A stretch of DNA of 64,000 bases from a virus (Duplodnaviria; Caudoviricetes). Below, one piece after another: positions 11,384 to 41,837 of the stretch (its first letter is position 1; each line of letters opens with the position of its first letter). The translations under genes and the position numbers were made by a program. Below the pieces are notes generated by a model. It was not told where the DNA came from, searched no databases, and saw nothing but the letters and a program-made list of their open reading frames with translations. The stretch lies in IMG/VR virus record IMGVR_UViG_3300025018_000138, positions 10,816-74,815 of that record. One strand, 5' to 3'.

Positions 11384-11674
11384 TTATGAATATTTTTTTT
11401 GTAATTCTGCTAATAGTTTTAATTCTCGTTCTTTGTCTTTTTCTAGTTTTGTATGTTCTTCTTTAAGACGAAGTGTATATTCGTCATCCGTTTCATATCT
11501 TTCTGAATAAAACTGAACAATTATTCTACCATCCGACCTAGTATACAAAGATGTATGGGTAGCACCCATTAGTTCTGCATCATCTAAATCTTTTCTAATA
11601 TCATGTATTGTTTTATTTGCATACGTGTCCCACTCAGGATATATATTGAGATTAAATCGTTTAAGTTGTTTCAT
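11384..11674 (-). CDS. hypothetical protein
   Basis: 96-aa ORF, coiled-coil C-terminus. Confidence 0.55.
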   Translation of the reverse strand: MKQLKRFNLNIYPEWDTYANKTIHDIRKDLDDAELMGATHTSLYTRSDGRIIVQFYSERYETDDEYTLRLKEEHTKLEKDKERELKLLAELQKKYS

Positions 11675-12135
11675 TTCTGTTCCGTATGCATAACAAACAT
11701 ATCATATAGTTGTCGTATTGAAATTTCGGGGTTCTTTGGATATCTAGATACTTTAGGCATCTCAGGATTCCATTCTTGCGTTGGTATATTTCTAAGATTT
11801 CTTAATACATAGTAAATAAATGCAGTAGGCATATCGTATTCGGGTAATTCCTCAACTTGTTTACCAAATGACCATTTACAATGTTTAGTATAATATCCAT
11901 ATTTCCAACACTCCGTTGGATGAATACCAATCAGTACTTCTTTTAAATCAGTCCATCTATATAATTCGGATTCATATGTTGCATTTAAAATTATTACATA
12001 TACATCAACATAATTATGTGGGTCATAATCATCTAATTTTAAAATTTGTTTTAAATCTTCCCAAACATCATCAGTTTTTTTATACCAACCTTTAGCATAA
12101 AGAATTACATGTGTTAATTTAAATTTATTTTTCAT
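11671..12135 (-). CDS. hypothetical phage protein
   Basis: 154-aa ORF, 4-nt overlap with next gene. Confidence 0.6.
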   Translation of the reverse strand: MKNKFKLTHVILYAKGWYKKTDDVWEDLKQILKLDDYDPHNYVDVYVIILNATYESELYRWTDLKEVLIGIHPTECWKYGYYTKHCKWSFGKQVEELPEYDMPTAFIYYVLRNLRNIPTQEWNPEMPKVSRYPKNPEISIRQLYDMFVMHTEQK

Positions 12136-12260: not shown

Positions 12261-12289
12261 AATATACTTAAACAGACAATAAATGTCAA
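12261..12289 (-). promoter_or_regulatory. sigma70-type promoter
   Basis: TTGACA-N17-TATATT. Confidence 0.7.
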
Positions 12290-12308
12290 TACGAAATTTT
12301 AAAAAATG

Positions 12309-12385
12309 TACCCACGACAAGATTCGAATCTTGTATGTATCCATTACACTTTCGACACGTTCGTAGCGTGAGGTGATACGTGGGC
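12309..12385 (-). ncRNA. rearranged tRNA-like RNA, anticodon ACG (Arg), copy 1
   Basis: acceptor GCCCACG/CGTGGGT, anticodon arm CACG-CTACGAA-CGTG, T arm with TTCGAAT; no D arm; D-loop-like AATGGA placed after the anticodon arm. Confidence 0.7.
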
Positions 12386-12443
12386 ATATGTTTTTATCAC
12401 CATTCCTCGTCCAATCGAGTCTAAAACTATGACATTTGATAAA

Positions 12444-12770
12444 TTATCTAAATGTAATAGTTTTAGTTTCAATTGGACTTCCATCGGAATTCTTTTCAAC
12501 AATGTTTAATTCTCTTTCCATTTCCCATAAAAGTTCTTCCATTTTAAGTTGTAACTGCTGTACCTTGTTGTAATCAATTTGTCTTGATGGTGTCATTTTA
12601 TTTTGTGTTTGTTTAACACAATTTGGACTTGCACCTGATAACAATGCAATTGATAGCAGTGTTCTGAAATTTGAATGTTCACTTCCAATACCTCTATCAT
12701 TTGATAATGATATTGATAAGTTTACTTTTTGTTTTTTAACTTCTATTTTGTCAAGAGAAACGGCTTTCAT
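12444..12770 (-). CDS. hypothetical protein
   Basis: 108-aa ORF with its own promoter. Confidence 0.6.
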   Translation of the reverse strand: MKAVSLDKIEVKKQKVNLSISLSNDRGIGSEHSNFRTLLSIALLSGASPNCVKQTQNKMTPSRQIDYNKVQQLQLKMEELLWEMERELNIVEKNSDGSPIETKTITFR

Positions 12771-12811
12771 ATTTTTAATCCTTTGTGTGTTTGGTTACTT
12801 ACTACATCACT

Positions 12812-12840
12812 AATATACAAACAAAAACATCAAAAGTCAA
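12812..12840 (-). promoter_or_regulatory. sigma70-type promoter
   Basis: TTGACT-N17-TATATT. Confidence 0.7.
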
Positions 12841-12867
12841 CCCTTTTTATTAAAATTTTAAAAAATG

Positions 12868-12944
12868 TACCCACGACAAGATTCGAATCTTGTATGTATC
12901 CATTACACTTTCGACACGTTCGTAGCGTGAGGTGATACATGGGC
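12868..12944 (-). ncRNA. rearranged tRNA-like RNA, anticodon ACG (Arg), copy 2
   Basis: identical to copy 1 except a C-to-T change giving a U-G wobble in the acceptor stem. Confidence 0.7.
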
Positions 12945-12951
12945 ATATTAA

Positions 12952-13185
12952 TTATTTTGTATCTGCATCTAATTGTTTTACTAATTTGTAAAAAGTATCT
13001 TTATTAATTCCATGTGTTAACATTATCAATGCAGTATATTCATGTTTGTTGTACATATATTTATTATCAACAGCAAGTGTAGTATTATTATGCTGTGTTT
13101 GTACTGATTGTATTAATGGATTTTCTATGTTAAATATTGTTTTCATATAGTGAATTATTAGTTGATTAAAAAAGAAACATATCAA
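12952..13185 (-). CDS. hypothetical protein (start probably at MKTIF)
   Basis: short ORF. Confidence 0.45.
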   Translation of the reverse strand: MICFFFNQLIIHYMKTIFNIENPLIQSVQTQHNNTTLAVDNKYMYNKHEYTALIMLTHGINKDTFYKLVKQLDADTK

Positions 13186-13377: not shown

Positions 13378-13382
13378 AACTG

Positions 13383-13454
13383 TACTCAGTATTGGAATCG
13401 AACCAATATTAAAGGCTTAGAAGTCCCTTGTACTATCCATTGTACGAACTGAGC
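13383..13454 (-). tRNA. tRNA-Arg(TCT)
   Basis: cloverleaf, loop CTTCTAA, T-loop TTCGATT. Confidence 0.9.
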
Positions 13455-13526
13455 ATAAAAAGCAGTAACATAATATCATCACGACATGATGTTACTTATT
13501 CCTAATGATATAGGAATATAATCGAG

Positions 13527-13612
13527 CGGAAAGCACCATAGTTGAAATGGATGGCTTTGACACCACAATCTGTTTAGCAAACAGTTACAAGCACCTACTT
13601 GTTTTACTTTCC
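13527..13612 (-). tRNA. tRNA-Ser(GCT) with 8/4 acceptor/T-stem structure
   Basis: 8-bp GGAAAGTA/TGCTTTCC, 4-bp T stem CCAT/ATGG, loop TTGCTAA, long V arm, G73. Confidence 0.75.
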
Positions 13613-13683
13613 AATTAAAAACAGAAAGTCATTGGAAACTTTCATACCTATGTTTTTATCACCATTCCTCGTCCAATCGAGTC

Positions 13684-13914
13684 TTATTTTAATAATGATA
13701 AATTATATTCATTTAGATATTGTTCAACATATTTTTTATCAAGTTTGATATTAACACTGACAATATGACCCGATGAATTATGTTTGTATCTATTAAATAA
13801 TTCATCTGATTCTATATCGTGAAAAACATCAATAAATTCAAAATCCACATCATGTTGTTTCTTACTTTTATATGCAAGAAATTCTTTATATTCATCGACT
13901 GTTATATATGGCAT
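13684..13914 (-). CDS. hypothetical protein
   Basis: 76-aa ORF between tRNAs. Confidence 0.55.
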   Translation of the reverse strand: MPYITVDEYKEFLAYKSKKQHDVDFEFIDVFHDIESDELFNRYKHNSSGHIVSVNIKLDKKYVEQYLNEYNLSLLK

Positions 13915-13937
13915 AGTATTCCAAAAGTGATAATTTG

Positions 13938-14012
13938 TACATCATATCAGATTCGAACTGATACTACCAAGTTTCTAAGACTTGTGACTCCTACCGATTG
14001 GTCTAATGATGC
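13938..14012 (-). tRNA. tRNA-Leu(TAG), short variable loop
   Basis: CAAGT-CTTAGAA-ACTTG; T arm TTCGAAT. Confidence 0.8.
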
Positions 14013-14017
14013 AAGTG

Positions 14018-14091
14018 TACTCTTGGACAGATTCGAACTGTCATTCAACAAATTTTAAGTCTGTTGGCGTTACCATTTAGCCTACAAGAGC
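14018..14091 (-). tRNA. tRNA-Leu(TAA), short variable loop
   Basis: ACAGA-CTTAAAA-TTTGT; T arm TTCGAAT. Confidence 0.8.
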
Positions 14092-14206
14092 ATTAAAGCG
14101 CTTATCACGAATCTCACGACATGATGATAAGCTTTCCATAAGATACTGAATATGTTTTAATATACATATGTTTTATTCTAATGTCAATATATCAACGAAC
14201 TTTTTG

Positions 14207-14290
14207 AGGAAGATGTGGGATTTGAACCCACGGGACAAGATGCCCTTTAGTTTTCAGGACTAACGCAATAATCCACTCTGCCAATCTTCC
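14207..14290 (-). tRNA. tRNA-Ser(TGA), atypical C33 and U73
   Basis: TTAGT-CCTGAAA-ACTAA, long V arm, acceptor GGAAGAT/ATCTTCC. Confidence 0.75.
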
Positions 14291-14293
14291 TTA

Positions 14294-14560
14294 TTAAATA
14301 CCATCGCCATCTAACATGTTAAGACGAACAGTTTCATCTTCACCGATTAGATAAATTCTATTTATGAATTCACCATTTTCATCCGTTTTACCATTCCAAC
14401 CTTCTGGGTGTGAATGAATTTCAACACAATATTCCCAACATAATGTTTGGACTTTACTTATAAATTCTTTCATTTTAGGTGATGTGTTATTTTTCATATG
14501 TATTTGTGTTTGTGTTATGTTTTCAATGTTGCCCGAACAAGATTCGAACTTGTACACCAT
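14294..14560 (-). CDS. hypothetical protein (true start probably downstream of tRNA-Gln, at MKNN)
   Basis: ORF in tRNA cluster; its 5' part overlaps tRNA-Gln. Confidence 0.5.
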   Translation of the reverse strand: MVYKFESCSGNIENITQTQIHMKNNTSPKMKEFISKVQTLCWEYCVEIHSHPEGWNGKTDENGEFINRIYLIGEDETVRLNMLDGDGI

Positions 14561-14600
14561 AATTCAAAGTTATGTTTCCTGCCAATTAGAATATCGAGCA
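14529..14600 (-). tRNA. tRNA-Gln(TTG)
   Basis: CATAA-CTTTGAA-TTATG; U1-A72. Confidence 0.9.
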
Positions 14601-14613
14601 ATGTATTTGTATG

Positions 14614-14688
14614 TAGCGTAGGGGGGATTTGAACCCCCAGTCTCCTGTTCCCAAAACAGGCGGAATAACCGAATTATCCTACTACACT
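14614..14688 (-). tRNA. tRNA-Pro(TGG)
   Basis: CCTGT-TTTGGGA-ACAGG. Confidence 0.88.
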
Positions 14689-21972: not shown

Positions 21973-22614
21973 ATGATACTAATCGAACAACAGATTGATT
22001 CACAATCATTAGCTATGTTACTAAAATGTCGAACTCAATTGATTAATTTAATTAATTCATTCAAACCTTATTGTAATAATTATTTTTATATTTATGGTGG
22101 GTTTATACGAGATTTAATATCTGGGTTTAAACCAGTTGATATTGATATTAATATTGCCGACAGTAATGATAAAAATCGTGTTATTAAGTACCTATCCAAA
22201 ACACATGATATTTCATATGAATCAGCTTGGGTAACTCGTTACAAGTCAAAAATGGGTTTACCAAAAACAATGTATGATATTGCATCCAATTTTAAAACAC
22301 CAACGGAATTTATATCAAATTCCGATTTTTCAAATAATGCTATATTATTTGATTCCAATTATGATTTGTTTTGTTTGGACTCGACTATATATGCAAATAC
22401 GAATAGAAAATTAATTTTAAAACCAATTGAATCTAATAGTCCTATGATTTTAGCATATAGAGCAGGTAAACTAATTCAAAAAGGGTTTGTATATAAATCC
22501 GAAAATCCTATAGACTTGATTAAAGATATAGAATATCAATTTGAACTATATACAAACCCAATCGATATTTATAAAGTTAATTTATCCATTAACGATAGAA
22601 ATGTATCACGTTGA
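21973..22614 (+). CDS. class II nucleotidyltransferase (poly(A) polymerase/CCA head domain only)
   Basis: YGGFIRD...DIDI and DFSNNAI motifs; 213 aa. Confidence 0.7.
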   Translation: MILIEQQIDSQSLAMLLKCRTQLINLINSFKPYCNNYFYIYGGFIRDLISGFKPVDIDINIADSNDKNRVIKYLSKTHDISYESAWVTRYKSKMGLPKTMYDIASNFKTPTEFISNSDFSNNAILFDSNYDLFCLDSTIYANTNRKLILKPIESNSPMILAYRAGKLIQKGFVYKSENPIDLIKDIEYQFELYTNPIDIYKVNLSINDRNVSR

Positions 22615-23624
22615 AAATTTCCAATTTCAGCACCTACTAATGTTTTAGGATAATCAACTCCTAATGCTTTGTACAACAATTGTACAATACTTACGAAAGA
22701 TTCATCCAATTTACATAACATGTTAACATTGTTCATAACAACTCGTCTATTTTTCCAAATAAATAATTTTGACTCGTTTATATCATCTACATAACTATCA
22801 ATCATAATATAGTTACCATAAAATTTAGATACTTGAGCAACTTCTTTTTTGATTGGTAATGAATCAATGAATGAATCATCAAACATACTAAATAAAAACG
22901 CAAATGAAGCATCAACATCATGGTCAATACACTCTTGAACTTCATCAATTCCCAACGATACGTCATCGATGAAACCTACATTATATAATAATACTTTTGG
23001 GATGAAATTAAATGTAGTAATACATTTAGCAAATTCATCCAAGATTCTTTCCATTGATAATACTTTATCCAATTTAACAGTATCAAGAATTTTTTCAATT
23101 GCCAATTTAGTACTTGCATCAAATGTCAAACCATATTTAACATAGAATCTAAAGGCTCTAATCACCCGTAAATAATCTTCTTCAAATCTGTGATACGGAT
23201 TACCAACAGTTTTTAAAATATTATTTTCCAAATCTGATTGTCCATCAAACCAATCTAATATTTTTGTTCCATCAAAACCCATCGCATTTATTGTAAAATC
23301 TCTACGTTGAGCATCTTCATAAAATGAATTGGTGAATTCTACTGTTGCACGTCTACCATCAGTACCCACATCTTTTCTAAATGTAGTATGTTCTACATGA
23401 ACCCCGTGAATTATAAATGTGACCGTTCCATGCTCTATACCAGTATCATATGATGAAAAAGGTAATAAATCTTTAATTTCCAATGGTGTATATGCTGATG
23501 CTACATCGATATCATGTGCTTCACGATTGAGTAACATATCCCTTACACAACCACCAACAGCAATTACTTCGGGTGCATATTGATGAATGGCATGTAAAAT
23601 TAATTCGATATTCGGGGTTGTCAT
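22569..23624 (-). CDS. cca: CCA-adding tRNA nucleotidyltransferase
   Basis: VGGCVRD, DIDV, RRDFTINAM, FEEDYLRVIRAFRF. Confidence 0.92.
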   Translation of the reverse strand: MTTPNIELILHAIHQYAPEVIAVGGCVRDMLLNREAHDIDVASAYTPLEIKDLLPFSSYDTGIEHGTVTFIIHGVHVEHTTFRKDVGTDGRRATVEFTNSFYEDAQRRDFTINAMGFDGTKILDWFDGQSDLENNILKTVGNPYHRFEEDYLRVIRAFRFYVKYGLTFDASTKLAIEKILDTVKLDKVLSMERILDEFAKCITTFNFIPKVLLYNVGFIDDVSLGIDEVQECIDHDVDASFAFLFSMFDDSFIDSLPIKKEVAQVSKFYGNYIMIDSYVDDINESKLFIWKNRRVVMNNVNMLCKLDESFVSIVQLLYKALGVDYPKTLVGAEIGNFQRDTFLSLMDKLTL

Positions 23625-25741: not shown

Positions 25742-27415
25742 TTAAATAACAATCGCTTTAATATCGTTGAGTACTGCTTTTGGGTCAAACTCAACTTTTT
25801 TAATCAGTTCATAGATATCTTGTGTATATCCTTCGAGAGAAAACACACGTGGGTGTTTACTATTAAACATTTCTGTTGGATAACCACAAACATTTATACT
25901 ATAAACATAGGTATTACCATTCAGTTTTTCATATTCTTTAAAAGAATTTATTACCGAATCTTTACCTTGCATATCACTAATGATAAATACTCTATCATAT
26001 CGTCCTTTTAATGATGGAAAGATAGTATCAAACGCAGTACCATAACCAACAGACCCTTGTTTTGATGCAATTACTTTTTTAATAGTATTTACAGAATCCA
26101 AAGGATTTATATTAATAGGTTGAGTATAGTTTGCAAAATGATATACATCTGCATTTGTAGCTTTCGCTAAAGTTGATGCAACCAATGATGCTTTTTCGAT
26201 TGCTGATTTACTACCTTGTTTTTTATTTGCTAAAGTAATCAAACTTGTCATAGAACCTGAGCTATCTAATACTACAGCAGTTTTACCTGTGAAGTAATCT
26301 TCTAAATTTGGTATTGATAATTCATATGCTTTATTTAATGCAGTTAATATTGAACCTAAATCACTTGGGCTATGTTCTTGTAACAGAAACTCCAATGCCA
26401 AATCTATTTGGTGTGGAAACACTAATGATTTTTTGATAAATTCTGGTTCAATTAGTAAAGCAGATACTTTTTCTTTTAATGTACTATGTCCAAGTTTAAT
26501 GATATTGTTTAAGTTTCTTAACAATGCCAAGTACCCAATTTTTTTAGTATCAATTAGCTCTACAAAATTTTCACCCTTTAAATCATCCAATTCAACTTTA
26601 GCTTGCTCAACACTTAATTCACCTGATGCCACTTTTGCAGAAACATCTTGACCCGATTTGGTGTTTTTATCTTCAACAGTATTGAACTGTTTTAATAAAC
26701 CTAACGTTAATGCAAACAATGTTGGGATAGTTACTTCTCCATCATCACTAATATTTCTTGTTAGTTTATGTGCTTGTTCTTCATATAATACATGCCCTTT
26801 GACTGCTTTAAGTAATTTAGCTTTAGGTACAGATACTACTCCTTGAATTTCGGTTTCCCGTGGGTGTACTAACTTGACAATATTCAATAAAGAAATACTA
26901 GAAGTTTTCAATTGGTATTTAGCCAATTGGTATTTATCAGCATTTTCAATCACAGATTTGAATCCACGTTTGATAGCATTTGATAATTTCTTACCGTTAT
27001 TTAATGCCATATATGCACCTGCGATTTCCATCATATCATCTAAACGATATACAACTCCACCGCGATTTTCACCACGAACACGTTTAGTGAAGAAATGAGT
27101 TCCTAATTCGGTACCACTAAGATATCTAGCTAATACTGCTGATGCAAAATGTGTTGTTGCACGTTGTCCTACGACTGAACGTACATAAACAATTGCTTTG
27201 GCTACCAATTCTTTATCACCAATTTTATCAATTAATGATAATATTCGTGCTTCTCTTGTTTCACTTGTTTCATAAAATGTATTATCTACACCTGTAGCAA
27301 GAATTCCTACTAATTCTACGATTGGGTCTTTTGCAAAACCGTTTCCGTTTTCATATGTAGTTACATTTGGTTCTGCTTTAGTAGCAGATACTTGGTGTGA
27401 GTTATATTTTCCCAT
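25742..27415 (-). CDS. rsr: Ro60/TROVE-domain RNA-binding protein with vWA domain
   Basis: N-terminal ENGNGF, YLALLRNLNNI, FPHQ, MIDAS VLDSSGSMT, C-terminal vWA. Confidence 0.92.
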   Translation of the reverse strand: MGKYNSHQVSATKAEPNVTTYENGNGFAKDPIVELVGILATGVDNTFYETSETREARILSLIDKIGDKELVAKAIVYVRSVVGQRATTHFASAVLARYLSGTELGTHFFTKRVRGENRGGVVYRLDDMMEIAGAYMALNNGKKLSNAIKRGFKSVIENADKYQLAKYQLKTSSISLLNIVKLVHPRETEIQGVVSVPKAKLLKAVKGHVLYEEQAHKLTRNISDDGEVTIPTLFALTLGLLKQFNTVEDKNTKSGQDVSAKVASGELSVEQAKVELDDLKGENFVELIDTKKIGYLALLRNLNNIIKLGHSTLKEKVSALLIEPEFIKKSLVFPHQIDLALEFLLQEHSPSDLGSILTALNKAYELSIPNLEDYFTGKTAVVLDSSGSMTSLITLANKKQGSKSAIEKASLVASTLAKATNADVYHFANYTQPININPLDSVNTIKKVIASKQGSVGYGTAFDTIFPSLKGRYDRVFIISDMQGKDSVINSFKEYEKLNGNTYVYSINVCGYPTEMFNSKHPRVFSLEGYTQDIYELIKKVEFDPKAVLNDIKAIVI

Positions 27416-29832: not shown

Positions 29833-29919
29833 TGCGGTTCGAAAGATTCGAACTTTACGCCACCAACCCCACTTAGTTTTTGACAACAGTTTTACAGACT
29901 GCCGTGGGGAACGAACCGC
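29833..29919 (-). ncRNA. rearranged tRNA-like RNA, anticodon GTA (Tyr)
   Basis: acceptor GCGGTTC/GAACCGC, CCCCAC/GTGGGG stem enclosing GCAGT-CTGTAAA-ACTGT, TTGG loop, T arm TTCGAAT. Confidence 0.75.
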
Positions 29920-30334: not shown

Positions 30335-30454
30335 AGGAGAAATATAAAAAGTGTGTTCCTCTTACGAGGTCGAGTGGAATTGAACCACTGAAGTTTATTT
30401 TCAAGATAAATGCCCAACCATTGAGCTACGATGTAACACTTTTAAACGCTACCT
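30335..30454 (-). ncRNA. Y-RNA-like element 5 containing a non-permuted tRNA body (anticodon TGA)
   Basis: AAAGTGT-TACATCG, then D arm, anticodon arm, T arm, GNRA hairpin, ACACTTT..TTTCTCC. Confidence 0.75.
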
Positions 30455-39239: not shown

Positions 39240-41837
39240 TTATTCTGTCTCAATATCTTCACCGATAATTTCTTCAATCGAAATTGAAGCATCGGTAGTA
39301 AGAATCAATCCTGCAATCGAAACTGCATTTAATAAAGCAGATTTTGTAATCTTAAATGGGTCAATAATACCCATCTCAAACATATCTCCATTAGTATTAT
39401 TTCTAACATCTAATCCCATGTTTACATTAGAATCCTCAGTGAATCGCTTTACAAATTCTCTAATATCATTTTTACTATAACCTGCATTTTCTAATATGGT
39501 CTCAAATGGTTTTTTTAATGAATAAAATAATATATCATATGCTAAATTTTTTTCTATTGATTTATTAATATATTTTGATGGAGAATATTCTGTTGATATT
39601 TTCAACAATGGAATCCCACCACCTGCTACAATACCATACTCAGTTGCAGATTTAGTAGCAAATAATGCATCTTCAATTCTATCCTTTTTCTCTTGTAATT
39701 CTACTTCAGAATTTGCACCAACTTTGATGATGGATACACCATTTGTAAAATTAGCATAACGTTCATTAATAGCATTTCTTTCAAACATTGATAATTTTGA
39801 GTCATTGATTAAAGATTCTAATAATTCTTTTCTATCATTGTATTCTTTAACTTTTGGAATACCACCGATGATAACAGAATTCTCTTTTTTACTTATAATT
39901 CGTTCAGCTTGACCTAAGTAGTCCATCGAAATATTTTTAATAGAATGTCCAAGTTCGGGAGTTATGAATGTAGCACCCGTAGATACTGCAATGTCCTTCA
40001 TAATCTCTTTTCTATTATCTCCAAATGATGCAGCTTTAATCAGACAAACTTTAATCACTCCACTTAATTTATTCTGAGCTAATACTCCTGCTACTTCCGC
40101 TTCAAAATCTTCAGCAATAATAACCAATGGTTTTCCTGATGATACTACACCTTCAAGCACAGGTAATAATTCTTTAGCAGTTGATAAAGTACCTGCATAT
40201 ACCATGACAAACGTGTTGTTTAATTCTGCTACCATTTTTTTCATGTCAGTAACAAAATAAGAAGAGAAATAACCTCTATCAATCTGCATACCCTCGACAT
40301 GTGACAAATAAGTTTCATCATTTTCTGAATCTTCAACTGATACATATCCACCGACACCAACCTTGGATATAGCTTTAGCAATGATAGAACCTAGAATGGT
40401 ATCTCCATTTGCAGAAATAGTTGCTACTTGACGTAGATGTTCTTCTGAATCAATATTTTTTTTCATTGATTCTAATTTTTCAACTACATCTACTGTTAGT
40501 AAATCCAATTCTCGTTTCAATTGAATTAAATTCATAGATTGGTTTGATGATTTAATTAACTCAAATGCTTTATGAAGAATTGCTTGTGTTAATACAGTTG
40601 CAGTAGTTGTATTGTGTGTTAAAATGAAATTATCAGTGAAATAAAGTTTATCGTTATTGCTGACTTTTATACAACGCATTGGAGTATATACATCAGTAGG
40701 AGTAATAGATACTATTTTGTTTCCATATTTATACCCTTTCAATTGTATAAATCTATGAATAGGATTATAGGAATAAGAATTGTCATCACTATCTCTTGTA
40801 TGAAATTTGAAATTTAAAGAAATGCCTAAACTATAACATAATACTTCAAAGTTTCTTGCTAACCTTCCACTTACGGTACTAAATACAAATCTACCTCGTT
40901 TATTTTTATAACCACCCATGTCAAGTAAACCTTGTAATAAATTTTCTCTTGTTGTATAATCATTATATAGATATTCATCTGGAATAAATTTAGTAAAACT
41001 ATTTACACCACGTAAATTAAGTTGTTCTAAAATTTCTGATAAGGATTTACCATATAATTTAACTCTAAAACTATTACTTTTTTCTACATGAGTTACATCT
41101 TTTCGTACACCTTCGGGTAGAATCAATTTGTCAATGATATGCTGCTTTTTAAAACCTAAAGATAACTCTATAGTTTCTCCACTTAAACTTCCATCGCCTA
41201 ATAGTACACCTAGTGTGTAAGGGTCTATGGGTACAGATTTCTGTGGAAAATTGACACCTTCTGATTGCACATAGTATCCATGTCTATTATTTTTCATTGT
41301 TATTCTACCAGAGTCTATTAAAGCACGTGTGGACATAGACTTCTTAGCACCATAATTAGTTATTACCGTCCATATATGAGTATCATCACAGTCGACCACT
41401 CTACCATCAGCAAATTTCACTTGATGTATTTGTAAATTACCTTTTTCATACACTTCTTCTACTGTTTGTACAGTATTATTAGTACCATTGATTAAATCAC
41501 CCTTTTTAATTTCAGCCATAGTAGTCCAACCATTTGGTGTGGAAATTTTAGACCAAAGTGGTTGACAACCGTCACCTGCATTATCGGCAGTTTTTTCAGC
41601 TACGGATTTGATTAAATCCGCACCCATATTTTCGATTGGGTCTTTAAGTATAATGTGTTTCGCAACAGTTACCCCATCTTTAGTAATTAGTGGTAGTTGC
41701 ATTTCTCGTTGAATGATAACATTCTTACCCGATGCACCAAGCGTTGATTTAACTGCATTAGCTAATTTGTCAACGCCTGATTTTAATTTATGACGAGTTT
41801 CTACATCGTATGATATATGTTTAATTATCTGTTTCAT
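39240..41837 (-). CDS. groEL: chaperonin GroEL (intein-containing; 546 aa after splicing)
   Basis: TKDGVTVAK, AGDG|TTTATVL, DRGYFS, KDRIEDALFAT, GIVAGGG, GIIDP. Confidence 0.95.
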   Translation of the reverse strand: MKQIIKHISYDVETRHKLKSGVDKLANAVKSTLGASGKNVIIQREMQLPLITKDGVTVAKHIILKDPIENMGADLIKSVAEKTADNAGDGCQPLWSKISTPNGWTTMAEIKKGDLINGTNNTVQTVEEVYEKGNLQIHQVKFADGRVVDCDDTHIWTVITNYGAKKSMSTRALIDSGRITMKNNRHGYYVQSEGVNFPQKSVPIDPYTLGVLLGDGSLSGETIELSLGFKKQHIIDKLILPEGVRKDVTHVEKSNSFRVKLYGKSLSEILEQLNLRGVNSFTKFIPDEYLYNDYTTRENLLQGLLDMGGYKNKRGRFVFSTVSGRLARNFEVLCYSLGISLNFKFHTRDSDDNSYSYNPIHRFIQLKGYKYGNKIVSITPTDVYTPMRCIKVSNNDKLYFTDNFILTHNTTTATVLTQAILHKAFELIKSSNQSMNLIQLKRELDLLTVDVVEKLESMKKNIDSEEHLRQVATISANGDTILGSIIAKAISKVGVGGYVSVEDSENDETYLSHVEGMQIDRGYFSSYFVTDMKKMVAELNNTFVMVYAGTLSTAKELLPVLEGVVSSGKPLVIIAEDFEAEVAGVLAQNKLSGVIKVCLIKAASFGDNRKEIMKDIAVSTGATFITPELGHSIKNISMDYLGQAERIISKKENSVIIGGIPKVKEYNDRKELLESLINDSKLSMFERNAINERYANFTNGVSIIKVGANSEVELQEKKDRIEDALFATKSATEYGIVAGGGIPLLKISTEYSPSKYINKSIEKNLAYDILFYSLKKPFETILENAGYSKNDIREFVKRFTEDSNVNMGLDVRNNTNGDMFEMGIIDPFKITKSALLNAVSIAGLILTTDASISIEEIIGEDIETE
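40611..41567 (-). mobile_element. intein (319 aa) with LAGLIDADG homing-endonuclease domain
   Basis: starts Cys (CQPL), ends THN before Thr; block B DDTHIW; LGVLLGDGS and LLQGLLDMGG. Confidence 0.93.

What the first reader, a model, noticed from the sequence alone, without database searches (positions are those of the whole stretch)
12309..12944. Duplicated tRNA-like RNA (ACG) with its D-loop element moved behind the anticodon arm
Minus strand: GCCCACG-TA-TCACCT-[CACG CTACGAA CGTG]-TCGAAAGTGTAATGGATACAT-[ACAAG ATTCGAAT CTTGT]-CGTGGGT-A. There is no D arm. A D-loop-like AATGGA follows the anticodon arm, and the segment after the acceptor can pair weakly with AGTG. The two copies differ only by a wobble-preserving change. 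No canonical Arg(ACG) tRNA is in the window. It also contains GUCGAAAG, reminiscent of Ro-binding motifs.
Basis: partly seen in the sequence, partly recalled or inferred. Interest (0 to 1): 0.75.

Follow-up and report, generated by a model that had tools for sequence, protein, structure and literature searches.

The report
Rewired, non-cloverleaf phage arginine tRNA
The two near-identical 77-base elements are genes for an arginine tRNA (anticodon ACG) whose D-arm is wired in a different strand order from the classic cloverleaf; over 100 distinct phage sequences share this layout, gene finders miss it, and I found no paper describing it.

Summary
Two copies lie on the minus strand at 12309-12385 and 12868-12944. 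They sit inside a 96-nt duplication and differ by one C/T change that still pairs with G. ARAGORN and Rfam do not call them.

They are not an oddity of one genome. Pattern scans of viral contigs gave 101 distinct well-formed relatives with the same plan: a 7-bp acceptor stem, U8-A9, a 3-bp helix (11-13 with 37-39) that encloses the anticodon arm, a TYGAAA linker, a D-loop-like TA..GGA..A-CAT strand, and a T arm. All four helices covary (99% of cells paired; 0 of 500 shuffles reach the observed score), and RNAalifold predicts the same fold on its own.

When the anticodon arm was left free in the search, only the six arginine anticodons appeared. Members lie in phage tRNA clusters, 37 of 55 encode CCA, and a canonical Arg(ACG) is absent from 54 of 55 loci.

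The window's copies alone carry an extra A in the T-loop, so their activity is less certain than the family's. The Ro-binding idea is not supported.

This scan has found the same family before on other DNA. I found no published description.

The parts
12309..12385 (-). Copy B of the rewired tRNA-Arg(ACG) gene, 77 nt. RNA position p = 12386 - p. Acceptor 1-7 with 70-76, discriminator A77, U8 A9.
   Evidence: 81.5 bits to family model R1.
12868..12944 (-). Copy A of the same gene. It is identical except T6 in place of C6, which still pairs with G71.
   Evidence: 79.5 bits.
12373..12375 (-). Copy B, CAC (RNA 11-13). This strand of the D-stem equivalent runs straight into C14 and the anticodon stem, so it takes the place of canonical 23-25.
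   Evidence: It pairs with GTG 37-39. The three pairs are 100% paired and all covary across 57 sequences.
12347..12349 (-). Copy B, GTG (RNA 37-39). This is the partner strand of the D-stem equivalent, followed by T40 A41 A42, so it takes the place of canonical 10-12 followed by 13, A14, R15.
12355..12371 (-). Copy B anticodon arm (RNA 15-31): T15 and T31 unpaired or U-U, 4 bp CACG/CGTG, loop CTACGAA. The anticodon ACG is at 12362-12364.
   Evidence: The stem covaries in the family.
12350..12354 (-). Copy B linker CGAAA (RNA 32-36); the family consensus is TGAAA.
   Evidence: Present in all 11 same-span members found by a pattern that did not constrain it.
12335..12346 (-). Copy B D-loop-like single strand TAATGGATACAT (RNA 40-51). 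It carries the A14, R15, G18, G19, A20 and A21 equivalents and then the conserved CAT.
   Evidence: CAT is 57/57, 57/57 and 55/57 conserved in the 57-sequence alignment, whose members came from searches that did not constrain it.
12317..12334 (-). Copy B T arm: stem ACAAG/CTTGT, loop A+TTCGAAT (8 nt). The extra A57 could instead pair with T64, giving 6 bp and a 6-nt loop.
   Evidence: the model treats A as an insertion; 98 of 101 relatives have a 7-nt loop.
12294..12308 (-). Shared 3' flank CATTTTTTAAAATTT. 'CA' follows the discriminator, as in 22 of this phage's 25 canonical tRNAs, and a T-run comes next. The same flank follows copy A at 12853-12867.
12261..12289 (-). Promoter-like site TTGACA-17-TATATT (11 of 12 matches), 20 nt after copy B and ahead of the 154-aa ORF 11671-12135.
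   Evidence: This is a consensus match only; the count of such sites in the region is no higher than in shuffles.
12812..12840 (-). Promoter-like site TTGACT-17-TATATT (10 of 12 matches) after copy A, ahead of the 108-aa ORF 12444-12770 and copy B.
12444..12770 (-). 108-aa ORF between the two copies, with no Pfam family. Copy B lies 58 nt after its stop codon.
12952..13185 (-). 77-aa ORF ending 7 nt before copy A, with no Pfam family.

Best explanation
Each copy encodes a transfer RNA for arginine (anticodon ACG) with a non-cloverleaf secondary structure. It belongs to a widespread family of rewired phage tRNA-Arg genes.

[quoted passage not shown] The usual D hairpin is replaced by a 3-bp helix between nucleotides 11-13, directly after U8-A9-U10, and nucleotides 37-39, which lie behind the anticodon arm. 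The anticodon arm is therefore nested inside this helix. The D-loop nucleotides (A14, R15, G18, G19, A20, A21 equivalents) follow as a single strand and lead through a conserved CAT into the T arm.

Inferred: the strand 11-13 plays the part of canonical 23-25, because it continues through C14 (the '26' position) into the anticodon stem. The strand 37-39 plays the part of canonical 10-12, because it continues into 13, A14 and R15. The chain is thus joined 9->22, 45->10 and 21->46. In canonical tRNA these are places where nucleotides already touch through the 9-12-23, 45-10-25 and 8-14-21 base triples, so the L-shape, the G18G19 contact with the T-loop, and the positions of the anticodon and the CCA end can all be kept.

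Inferred function: the RNA is cut out of the small-ORF transcripts by RNase P and 3' processing, and CCA is added (the phage encodes a CCA-adding enzyme). ArgRS charges it through A20, C35, G36 and N73. TadA, which needs only the anticodon arm, deaminates A34 to inosine. The tRNA then reads CGU, CGC and CGA, which make up 39% of arginine codons in this 28% G+C phage.

Why the core is rewired is unknown. My best guess is escape from a host factor that recognises the canonical D-arm or core of tRNA-Arg, such as a tRNA-targeting defence nuclease.
For: Family: pattern scans of viral contigs gave 57 aligned sequences (55 relatives plus the two window copies) and later 101 distinct well-formed ones.

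Structure: 99% of cells are paired, against 70.8% in shuffles. 17 of 19 pairs have double changes. The covariation score is 0.81 against 0.24, with 0 of 500 shuffles as high. Slid registers give 33-49% paired. The highest mutual-information column pairs are exactly the helix pairs, including 11:39, 12:38 and 13:37. RNAalifold predicts the identical structure unaided. The helix filter removed no candidate that had a good acceptor and T arm.

tRNA-Arg identity: with the whole anticodon arm unconstrained, 77 well-formed distinct hits carried ACG 32, TCT 28, CCT 11, TCG 3, CCG 2 and GCG 1. These are exactly the six arginine anticodons.

Context: 42 of 55 members lie within 300 nt of a canonical tRNA, 37 of 55 encode CCA after the discriminator, and 54 of 55 loci lack a canonical Arg(ACG) although many hold other Arg isoacceptors. 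The one locus that has a canonical Arg(ACG), L083, carries a decayed rewired copy.

This window: the two copies score 81.5 and 79.5 bits, against 25 bits or less for canonical tRNAs. Every helix is fully paired and every family-invariant base is present. No canonical Arg(ACG) is present. CGT, CGC and CGA account for 187 of 481 Arg codons. 'CA' follows the discriminator as in 22 of the phage's 25 canonical tRNAs. A CCA-adding-enzyme domain is encoded at about window 23214-23558.

Published context: a D-arm-less tRNA can work in E. coli translation, which shows the machinery tolerates altered cores (PMC11551756).
Against: There is no expression, processing, aminoacylation or modification data for any member. 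The 3D threading is inference only.

The window's two copies have an 8-nt T-loop (an extra A between G53 and T54). This is unique among 101 distinct members, and no relative with it was found in viral or metagenome contigs. It could impair the T-loop/D-loop elbow.

Some conserved motifs (TYGAAA, TA, GGA) were imposed by my search patterns, so their invariance is only partly independent evidence.

The discriminator varies (G 27, A 16, T 12 among the 55 relatives). The anticodon stem has only 4 Watson-Crick pairs plus U-U.

No arginine-specific host factor that would explain the rewiring is known to me.
Confidence: 0.7

Rival explanations
1. The RNA is derived from a tRNA but is not used in translation. 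It could be a decoy for tRNA-targeting nucleases or tRNA-binding enzymes, or a punctuation or terminator module that RNase P or RNase Z cuts at the ends of small-ORF transcripts.
For: Each window copy sits directly after a small ORF and before a T-run and a promoter-like site. The copies have an aberrant 8-nt T-loop and no encoded CCA. Phage tRNAs are known to counter tRNA nucleases (PMC10264068, PMC11555353, PMC11464382, seen).
Against: A decoy or punctuation element would not need all six arginine anticodons and only those, an encoded CCA in 37 of 55 members, or to fill the Arg(ACG) slot that is empty in 54 of 55 tRNA clusters. None of this phage's 25 canonical tRNAs encodes CCA either, so the lack of CCA here is not informative.
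Confidence: 0.14
2. The two window copies are recently inactivated pseudogenes of the rewired tRNA-Arg family, disabled by the one-base insertion in the T-loop and duplicated by recombination among repeated spacers.
For: The 8-nt T-loop is unique among 101 members, and the only other odd T-loop (6 nt, L083) belongs to a visibly decaying copy. The region holds other segmental repeats. No relative with the insertion was found.
Against: Apart from the insertion there is no decay. All 19 base pairs and all invariant bases are intact although the nearest relative is only 79% identical. The one difference between the copies preserves pairing. The phage has no other Arg(ACG) gene, yet it uses 187 CGT, CGC and CGA codons in the ORFs counted.
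Confidence: 0.13
3. It is a Ro60-associated Y-RNA-like (YrlA-type) RNA, with GUCGAAAG as part of a Ro-binding site.
For: The window encodes a TROVE-domain protein at 25742-27415. YrlA RNAs contain tRNA-like modules (my own knowledge).
Against: No Y-RNA or YrlA family matches, even at E<=10. The GAAA linker is a core feature of a family that is almost never next to TROVE: 1 of 113 loci, 1.03 Mb of flanks. The element has a full anticodon arm and acceptor end, and no helix that could serve as a Ro-binding stem. The TROVE gene lies 13 kb away.
Confidence: 0.02

Closest known systems
Canonical bacterial and phage tRNA-Arg(ACG/ICG), class I cloverleaf (Rfam RF00005; e.g. E. coli tRNA-Arg ICG)
   Same: 7-bp acceptor stem with discriminator; U8 and A9; anticodon loop CUACGAA; D-loop nucleotides A14, R15, G18, G19, A20, A21; T arm with TTCGAAT; total length 75-78 nt; position in tRNA clusters; often an encoded CCA.
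   Different: There is no D hairpin 5' of the anticodon arm. The D-stem is only 3 bp and is formed by strands that flank the anticodon arm. The D-loop lies 3' of the anticodon arm, inside what would be the variable region. The anticodon stem has 4 bp plus U-U. RF00005 and ARAGORN do not detect it.
D-armless tRNAs: animal mitochondrial tRNA-Ser(AGY) and the engineered 'mini HisT' used by evolved E. coli (PMC11551756; review PMC7609411)
   Same: No D hairpin between the acceptor and anticodon stems. Both show that translation can tolerate a non-cloverleaf core.
   Different: Those tRNAs have lost the D-loop and the elbow contact and are shorter (mini HisT is 62 nt). Here the D-loop nucleotides and a D-stem are kept but relocated, the length is normal, and the setting is bacterial rather than mitochondrial.
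The rewired tRNA-Tyr(GTA) of the same phage (window 29833-29919) and the rewired Arg/Ile/Tyr phage tRNAs noted earlier in this scan
   Same: The same wiring: a 5' connector pairs with a strand behind the anticodon arm (CCCCAC with GTGGGG in the Tyr gene, read by eye), followed by about 11 nt that include GG and then the T arm. Gene finders miss these too.
   Different: The Tyr gene has a different amino-acid identity, a longer helix (6 bp) and a longer spacer. I did not analyse that family myself.
Circularly permuted tRNA genes (Cyanidioschyzon merolae) and split tRNAs (Nanoarchaeum)
   Same: The order of tRNA segments in the gene departs from the norm.
   Different: In those, the mature tRNA is a normal cloverleaf restored by processing, and the gene's termini lie inside the tRNA. 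Here the acceptor ends are the gene ends and the mature RNA itself must be non-cloverleaf.
YrlA / bacterial Y RNAs bound by Ro60 (Rsr)
   Same: A tRNA-like module in a genome that also encodes a TROVE protein.
   Different: There is no Ro-binding helix, a complete anticodon arm and aminoacyl end are present, and the family is not linked to TROVE genes.

Membership tests
Canonical cloverleaf tRNA (Rfam RF00005) | 7-bp acceptor stem closing the molecule, with an unpaired discriminator | tested here: met
   GCCCACG pairs with CGTGGGT, then A. All 7 pairs covary in the family.
Canonical cloverleaf tRNA (Rfam RF00005) | D hairpin (10-13 / loop / 22-25) between position 9 and the anticodon arm | tested here: not met
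   Only 6 nt (TCACCT) separate A9 from the anticodon stem, and the D-loop motif lies 3' of the anticodon arm.
Canonical cloverleaf tRNA (Rfam RF00005) | Anticodon arm with a 7-nt loop, U33, and a purine at 37 | tested here: met
   The loop is CTACGAA. The stem has 4 covarying bp plus a conserved U-U.
Canonical cloverleaf tRNA (Rfam RF00005) | T arm with a 5-bp stem and a 7-nt T-loop | tested here: not met
   The window copies have an 8-nt loop ATTCGAAT; 98 of 101 relatives meet this feature.
Canonical cloverleaf tRNA (Rfam RF00005) | Scores above the RF00005 gathering threshold, or is called by ARAGORN | tested here: not met
   No hit even at E<=10. ARAGORN of 57 true family members. RF00005 is silent at four relatives.
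Rewired phage tRNA-Arg family (unnamed; model R1 built here) | Helix 11-13 with 37-39 enclosing the anticodon arm | tested here: met
   CAC pairs with GTG. The family shows 10 different pair combinations and is 100% paired.
Rewired phage tRNA-Arg family (unnamed; model R1 built here) | Core motifs: U8 A9 N10, C14 U15, T-YGAAA linker, TA..GGA..A D-loop strand, CAT before the T stem | tested here: met
   All are present in both copies.
Rewired phage tRNA-Arg family (unnamed; model R1 built here) | An arginine anticodon | tested here: met
   ACG here. Family members found with the anticodon arm unconstrained carry only the six Arg anticodons.
Rewired phage tRNA-Arg family (unnamed; model R1 built here) | Lies in a phage tRNA cluster | tested here: met
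   It lies at the end of the array 13382-14688 on the same strand. 42 of 55 relatives are within 300 nt of a tRNA.
Functional aminoacyl-tRNA-Arg | Mature RNA with CCA, charged by ArgRS, I34 formed, used on the ribosome | not testable with these tools
   No transcriptome or biochemical data. Only the identity nucleotides (A20, C35, G36, A73) can be read from the sequence.
Y RNA / YrlA (Ro60 ligand) | A Ro-binding stem, and a match to the Rfam Y-RNA or YrlA models | tested here: not met
   No such match at E<=10, and no free helix remains besides the tRNA helices.
D-armless mitochondrial-type tRNA | Loss of the D-loop and D-stem, with a short connector only | tested here: not met
   The D-loop nucleotides and a covarying D-stem equivalent are kept.

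The most novel reading that the evidence does not exclude
Bacterial translation naturally uses tRNAs that are not cloverleaves. Phages have fixed a rewired tRNA core (joined 9->22, 45->10, 21->46) for arginine, and in this same phage for tyrosine. The rewiring would be an adaptive counter-defence that keeps ArgRS, TadA, EF-Tu and ribosome recognition while escaping a host factor that reads the canonical D-arm or core. The 8-nt T-loop in this phage would be a further, compensated variation (its D-loop is one base shorter than the modal type).
Probability: 0.25. Interest if true: 0.92.

Novelty: new variant of a known kind. Interest (0 to 1): 0.8.

Why it matters
The literature I could read states that all known bacterial tRNAs are cloverleaves and that cytosolic tRNAs vary only in arm sizes (PMC11551756). 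The review of non-canonical tRNAs does not mention phages at all, and none of its D-arm passages I saw describes a relocated D-arm (PMC7609411).

A natural, widespread, covariation-supported tRNA-Arg with a different strand topology would be a new structural class of tRNA. It would open four lines of work:
- Phage tRNA inventories are systematically incomplete. The 'missing' Arg(ACG), and here Tyr, are present but not called.
- It gives a natural test of which parts of the tRNA core ArgRS, TadA, RNase P, EF-Tu and the ribosome really need.
- It offers a new scaffold for orthogonal tRNA engineering.
- It raises a testable link to tRNA-targeting phage defence.

Cultured carriers exist (Streptomyces, Microbacterium and Rhodococcus phages), so experiments are feasible now.

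Tried and rejected
- Single-sequence MFE fold: it pairs GUAUC 7-11 with GAUAC 45-49 and breaks the anticodon arm. I rejected it because it has no support in the family.
- Local D hairpin GTGT/ACAT (37-40 with 48-51): it is possible in this sequence only. I rejected it as the conserved fold because CAT is invariant while 37-39 varies and covaries with 11-13.
- Plain terminator or intergenic repeat: no terminator-like site was called, and family conservation goes far beyond a hairpin.
- Close relatives of the phage, to test the T-loop insertion: none found by megablast against cultured phages, by an exact 25-mer in viral contigs, or by insertion-specific patterns in viral and metagenome contigs (all 11 metagenome hits were chance).
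- Bacterial origin: in the GTDB genome scan only 1 of the matches returned was real, a 16-kb MAG contig (L102).
- Ro60 link: tblastn of the window's TROVE protein against 113 family loci gave one hit.
- Literature: seven full-text searches found no description of this architecture. The held library is not complete.
- Pfam on the flanking small ORFs: nothing found.

Full report
**Setting.** The window is part of a 74.8-kb IMG/VR viral contig that CheckV rates 36% complete. It has 28% G+C. It encodes a GroEL, a family-B DNA polymerase, a TROVE/Ro60-like protein and a CCA-adding-enzyme domain. It has no close cultured relative. ARAGORN finds 25 tRNAs, all on the minus strand. None is Arg(ACG) and none is Tyr. 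Rfam finds 23 tRNAs.

**Observation.** The duplicated unit is 96 nt, 12294-12389 and 12853-12948, and 99% identical. The one difference is C6 against T6, and both pair with G71. The flanks outside the unit are unrelated. Neither ARAGORN nor Rfam calls anything there, whether at gathering score or at E<=10 over a 900-nt slice. Copy A starts 7 nt after a 77-aa ORF and copy B 58 nt after a 108-aa ORF. Each copy is followed by CATTTTTTAAAATTT and then by the two best promoter-like matches of the region, TTGACA-17-TATATT and TTGACT-17-TATATT.

**Relatives.** I scanned for a pattern that fixed only the anticodon loop, GGATA and the T-loop. It gave 28 viral loci, of which 11 had exactly the window's 45-nt span and a shared architecture. 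A second pattern (anticodon loop, TYGAAA linker, TA, GGA) gave 68 viral loci, of which about 57 have 7/7 acceptor pairs, 5/5 T-stem pairs and 3/3 pairs in a short helix between positions 11-13 and 37-39. The same pattern over one genome per prokaryote species gave 120 or more matches. As far as sampled, the family is viral. ARAGORN calls none of the 57 true members, tested with flanks. RF00005 is silent at four that I checked. Cultured carriers exist: Streptomyces phages (Mildred21, Braelyn and others), Microbacterium phages (Zooman, A3Wally) and Rhodococcus phage Trina. The gene is unannotated in Mildred21, where it lies in a gap inside a tRNA array. In Trina it is annotated 'tRNA-OTHER'.

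**Structure.** I counted pairs on the alignment of 57 distinct sequences (A2), using this structure: acceptor 1-7/70-76, helix 11-13/37-39, anticodon stem 16-19/27-30, and T stem.
- 99.0% of cells are paired, against 70.8% in shuffles.
- 17 of 19 pairs have changes on both sides.
- The covariation score is 0.81 against 0.24, and 0 of 500 shuffles reach it.
- Slid registers give 33-49% paired.
- The short helix is 100% paired and all three of its pairs covary. Ten combinations occur: ACC:GGT, GCC:GGC, ACT:AGT, AAC:GTT, CAC:GTG, GGC:GCC, CTC:GAG, CCT:GGG, ACA:TGT and AGG:CCT.

The helix filter did not bias this result, because every candidate with a good acceptor and T arm already had 3/3 pairs. 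The highest mutual-information column pairs are exactly these helix pairs, and RNAalifold returns the identical structure unaided. The single-sequence MFE fold and the local hairpin GTGT/ACAT are not supported by the family.

**Identity.** I then scanned for the scaffold with the entire 15-17-nt anticodon arm left free. This gave 101 loci and 77 well-formed distinct sequences. Their anticodons are ACG 32, TCT 28, CCT 11, TCG 3, CCG 2 and GCG 1, which are exactly the six arginine anticodons and no other. Six distinct anticodons falling by chance on the six arginine ones has odds of about 1 in 75 million (1/C(64,6)), relatedness aside.

The context agrees:
- 42 of 55 members lie within 300 nt of a canonical tRNA.
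- 37 of 55 encode CCA right after the discriminator.
- 54 of 55 loci have no canonical Arg(ACG), although many have TCT, CCT, TCG, CCG or GCG isoacceptors.

The single locus with a canonical Arg(ACG), L083, has a rewired copy with a 5/7 acceptor stem and a 6-nt T-loop. That looks like decay under redundancy. I take this as strong comparative evidence that the family consists of working arginine tRNAs.

**How it probably folds (inference).** The strand 11-13 is followed by an invariant C and the anticodon stem, as canonical 23-25 is followed by 26 and 27. The strand 37-39 is followed by T-A-R...G-G-A...A, as canonical 10-12 is followed by 13, A14, R15, G18, G19, A20 and A21. The invariant CAT then enters the T stem as 46-48 does. 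Compared with a cloverleaf, the block made of the D-stem 5' strand and the D-loop has moved from before the anticodon arm to inside the variable region, between 45 and 46.

The three new joins (9->22, 45->10, 21->46) connect nucleotides that already touch in canonical tRNA through the 9-12-23, 45-10-25 and 8-14-21 triples. This rests on textbook tRNA structure, which is my own knowledge. An L-shape with the usual elbow is therefore plausible. The ArgRS determinants (A20, C35, G36, N73) and the TadA substrate (the anticodon arm with CUACGAA) are present.

**This window in particular.** The two copies score 81.5 and 79.5 bits against the family model, while canonical tRNAs of the window score 25 bits or less. 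Both copies were in the training alignment, so this score is not independent. The nearest relative is 79% identical, yet every pair and every invariant base is intact.

CGT, CGC and CGA make up 187 of 481 arginine codons in 58 ORFs, and the phage has no other gene for that decoding. The discriminator A is followed by CA, as in 22 of the phage's 25 canonical tRNAs. None of those encodes CCA, so the missing CCA here is normal for this genome.

There is one real anomaly. An extra A lies between the T-stem 5' strand and T54, giving an 8-nt T-loop or, alternatively, a 6-bp stem with a 6-nt loop. It is unique among 101 distinct members. Insertion-specific patterns found no carrier in viral or metagenome contigs. 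The D-loop strand is one base shorter than the modal type, so the total length is still the modal 77 nt. Whether that compensates is unknown. This anomaly is why I rate the activity of these two copies lower than that of the family.

**Ro60.** The window has a TROVE gene 13 kb away. However, the GAAA linker is a family core feature, only 1 of 113 family loci (1.03 Mb) has a TROVE homologue in its flanks, and no Y-RNA model matches. The Ro reading is not supported.

**Literature and earlier scan notes.** Seven full-text searches found no description of this architecture. [quoted passage not shown] The 2020 review of non-canonical tRNAs does not mention phages, and none of its D-arm passages shown to me describes a relocated D-arm (PMC7609411). 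Work on phage tRNAs that escape tRNA-targeting defences (PMC10264068, PMC11555353, PMC11464382, PMC12445682) supplies a possible selective reason, but none of it concerns arginine or this fold.

Earlier notes of this scan report the same rewired Arg family on other genomes, with Ile and Tyr versions, and likewise found no paper. I reached the family independently before reading them, and my counts agree with theirs.

**Verdict.** The element is a member of a large, covariation-supported family of phage non-cloverleaf arginine tRNAs, present here in two copies that carry a lineage-specific T-loop insertion. I give membership about 0.95, the family being working tRNAs about 0.8, and these two copies being active about 0.65.

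Noticed in passing
window 29833-29919 (-): A tRNA-Tyr(GTA)-like gene with the same wiring. The 5' connector CCCCAC can pair with GTGGGG behind the anticodon arm (loop CTGTAAA), followed by TTGGTGGCGTA and a T arm with TTCGAAT. The discriminator A is followed by CA. ARAGORN and Rfam miss it, and the window has no other Tyr tRNA.
   Followed up: partly
window 13528-13612 (-): An uncalled tRNA-Ser(GCU)-like gene. The MFE fold gives an 8-bp acceptor, a 6-bp D-stem with a 4-nt loop, an anticodon loop region TTGCTAA, a 5-bp variable arm and a 4-bp T stem with TTCAACT. This is an 8/4 'allo-tRNA'-like or tRNA-Sec-like shape. ARAGORN and Rfam miss it.
   Followed up: partly
window 12387-12422 and 13649-13684: An exact 36-nt repeat (minus strand AGACTCGATTGGACGAGGAATGGTGATAAAAACATA). 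One copy abuts the 5' end of tRNA copy B. The other follows the 76-aa ORF 13684-13914, ahead of a hairpin with a T-run and the Ser-like gene. The ORF ends next to it are also similar (12437-12456 and 13696-13715, 80%).
   Followed up: no
window, all 25 canonical tRNAs: 22 of 25 tRNA genes have 'CA' directly after the discriminator, and none encodes CCA. This could be a phage-specific 3'-processing signature. It may relate to the phage's own CCA-adding enzyme at about 23214-23558 (ORF 22569-23624).
   Followed up: partly
L083:3025-3101 and L083:3106-3179: The only family locus with a canonical Arg(ACG) next door. Its rewired copy has a 5/7 acceptor stem and a 6-nt T-loop, as if decaying under redundancy.
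   Followed up: partly
L010:1883-1962 and L032:952-1031: A family member that is normal up to the T-loop and then diverges (…TTCGAATCTCGCCATTTTAAATGGCAGATCAGCACCC). Its 3' part is either disrupted or interrupted by an insertion.
   Followed up: no
L210 (Rhodococcus phage Trina NC_042040.1 104372-104450): The family member is annotated 'tRNA-OTHER', and the annotated start of the thioredoxin CDS (104417) overlaps it. The CDS start is probably set too far upstream.
   Followed up: no
window 39240-41837 (-): An 865-aa GroEL-like protein. The Cpn60 match is split into two stretches, and tblastn covers only 64% of it in two pieces, which suggests a large insertion, possibly an intein, or an extension.
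   Followed up: no
window 30370-30431 (-): Rfam calls a partial tRNA (model positions 5-66, 44.5 bits) that ARAGORN does not. It has no acceptor stem, and it lies among elements that earlier notes call Y-RNA-like, upstream of the TROVE gene.
   Followed up: no
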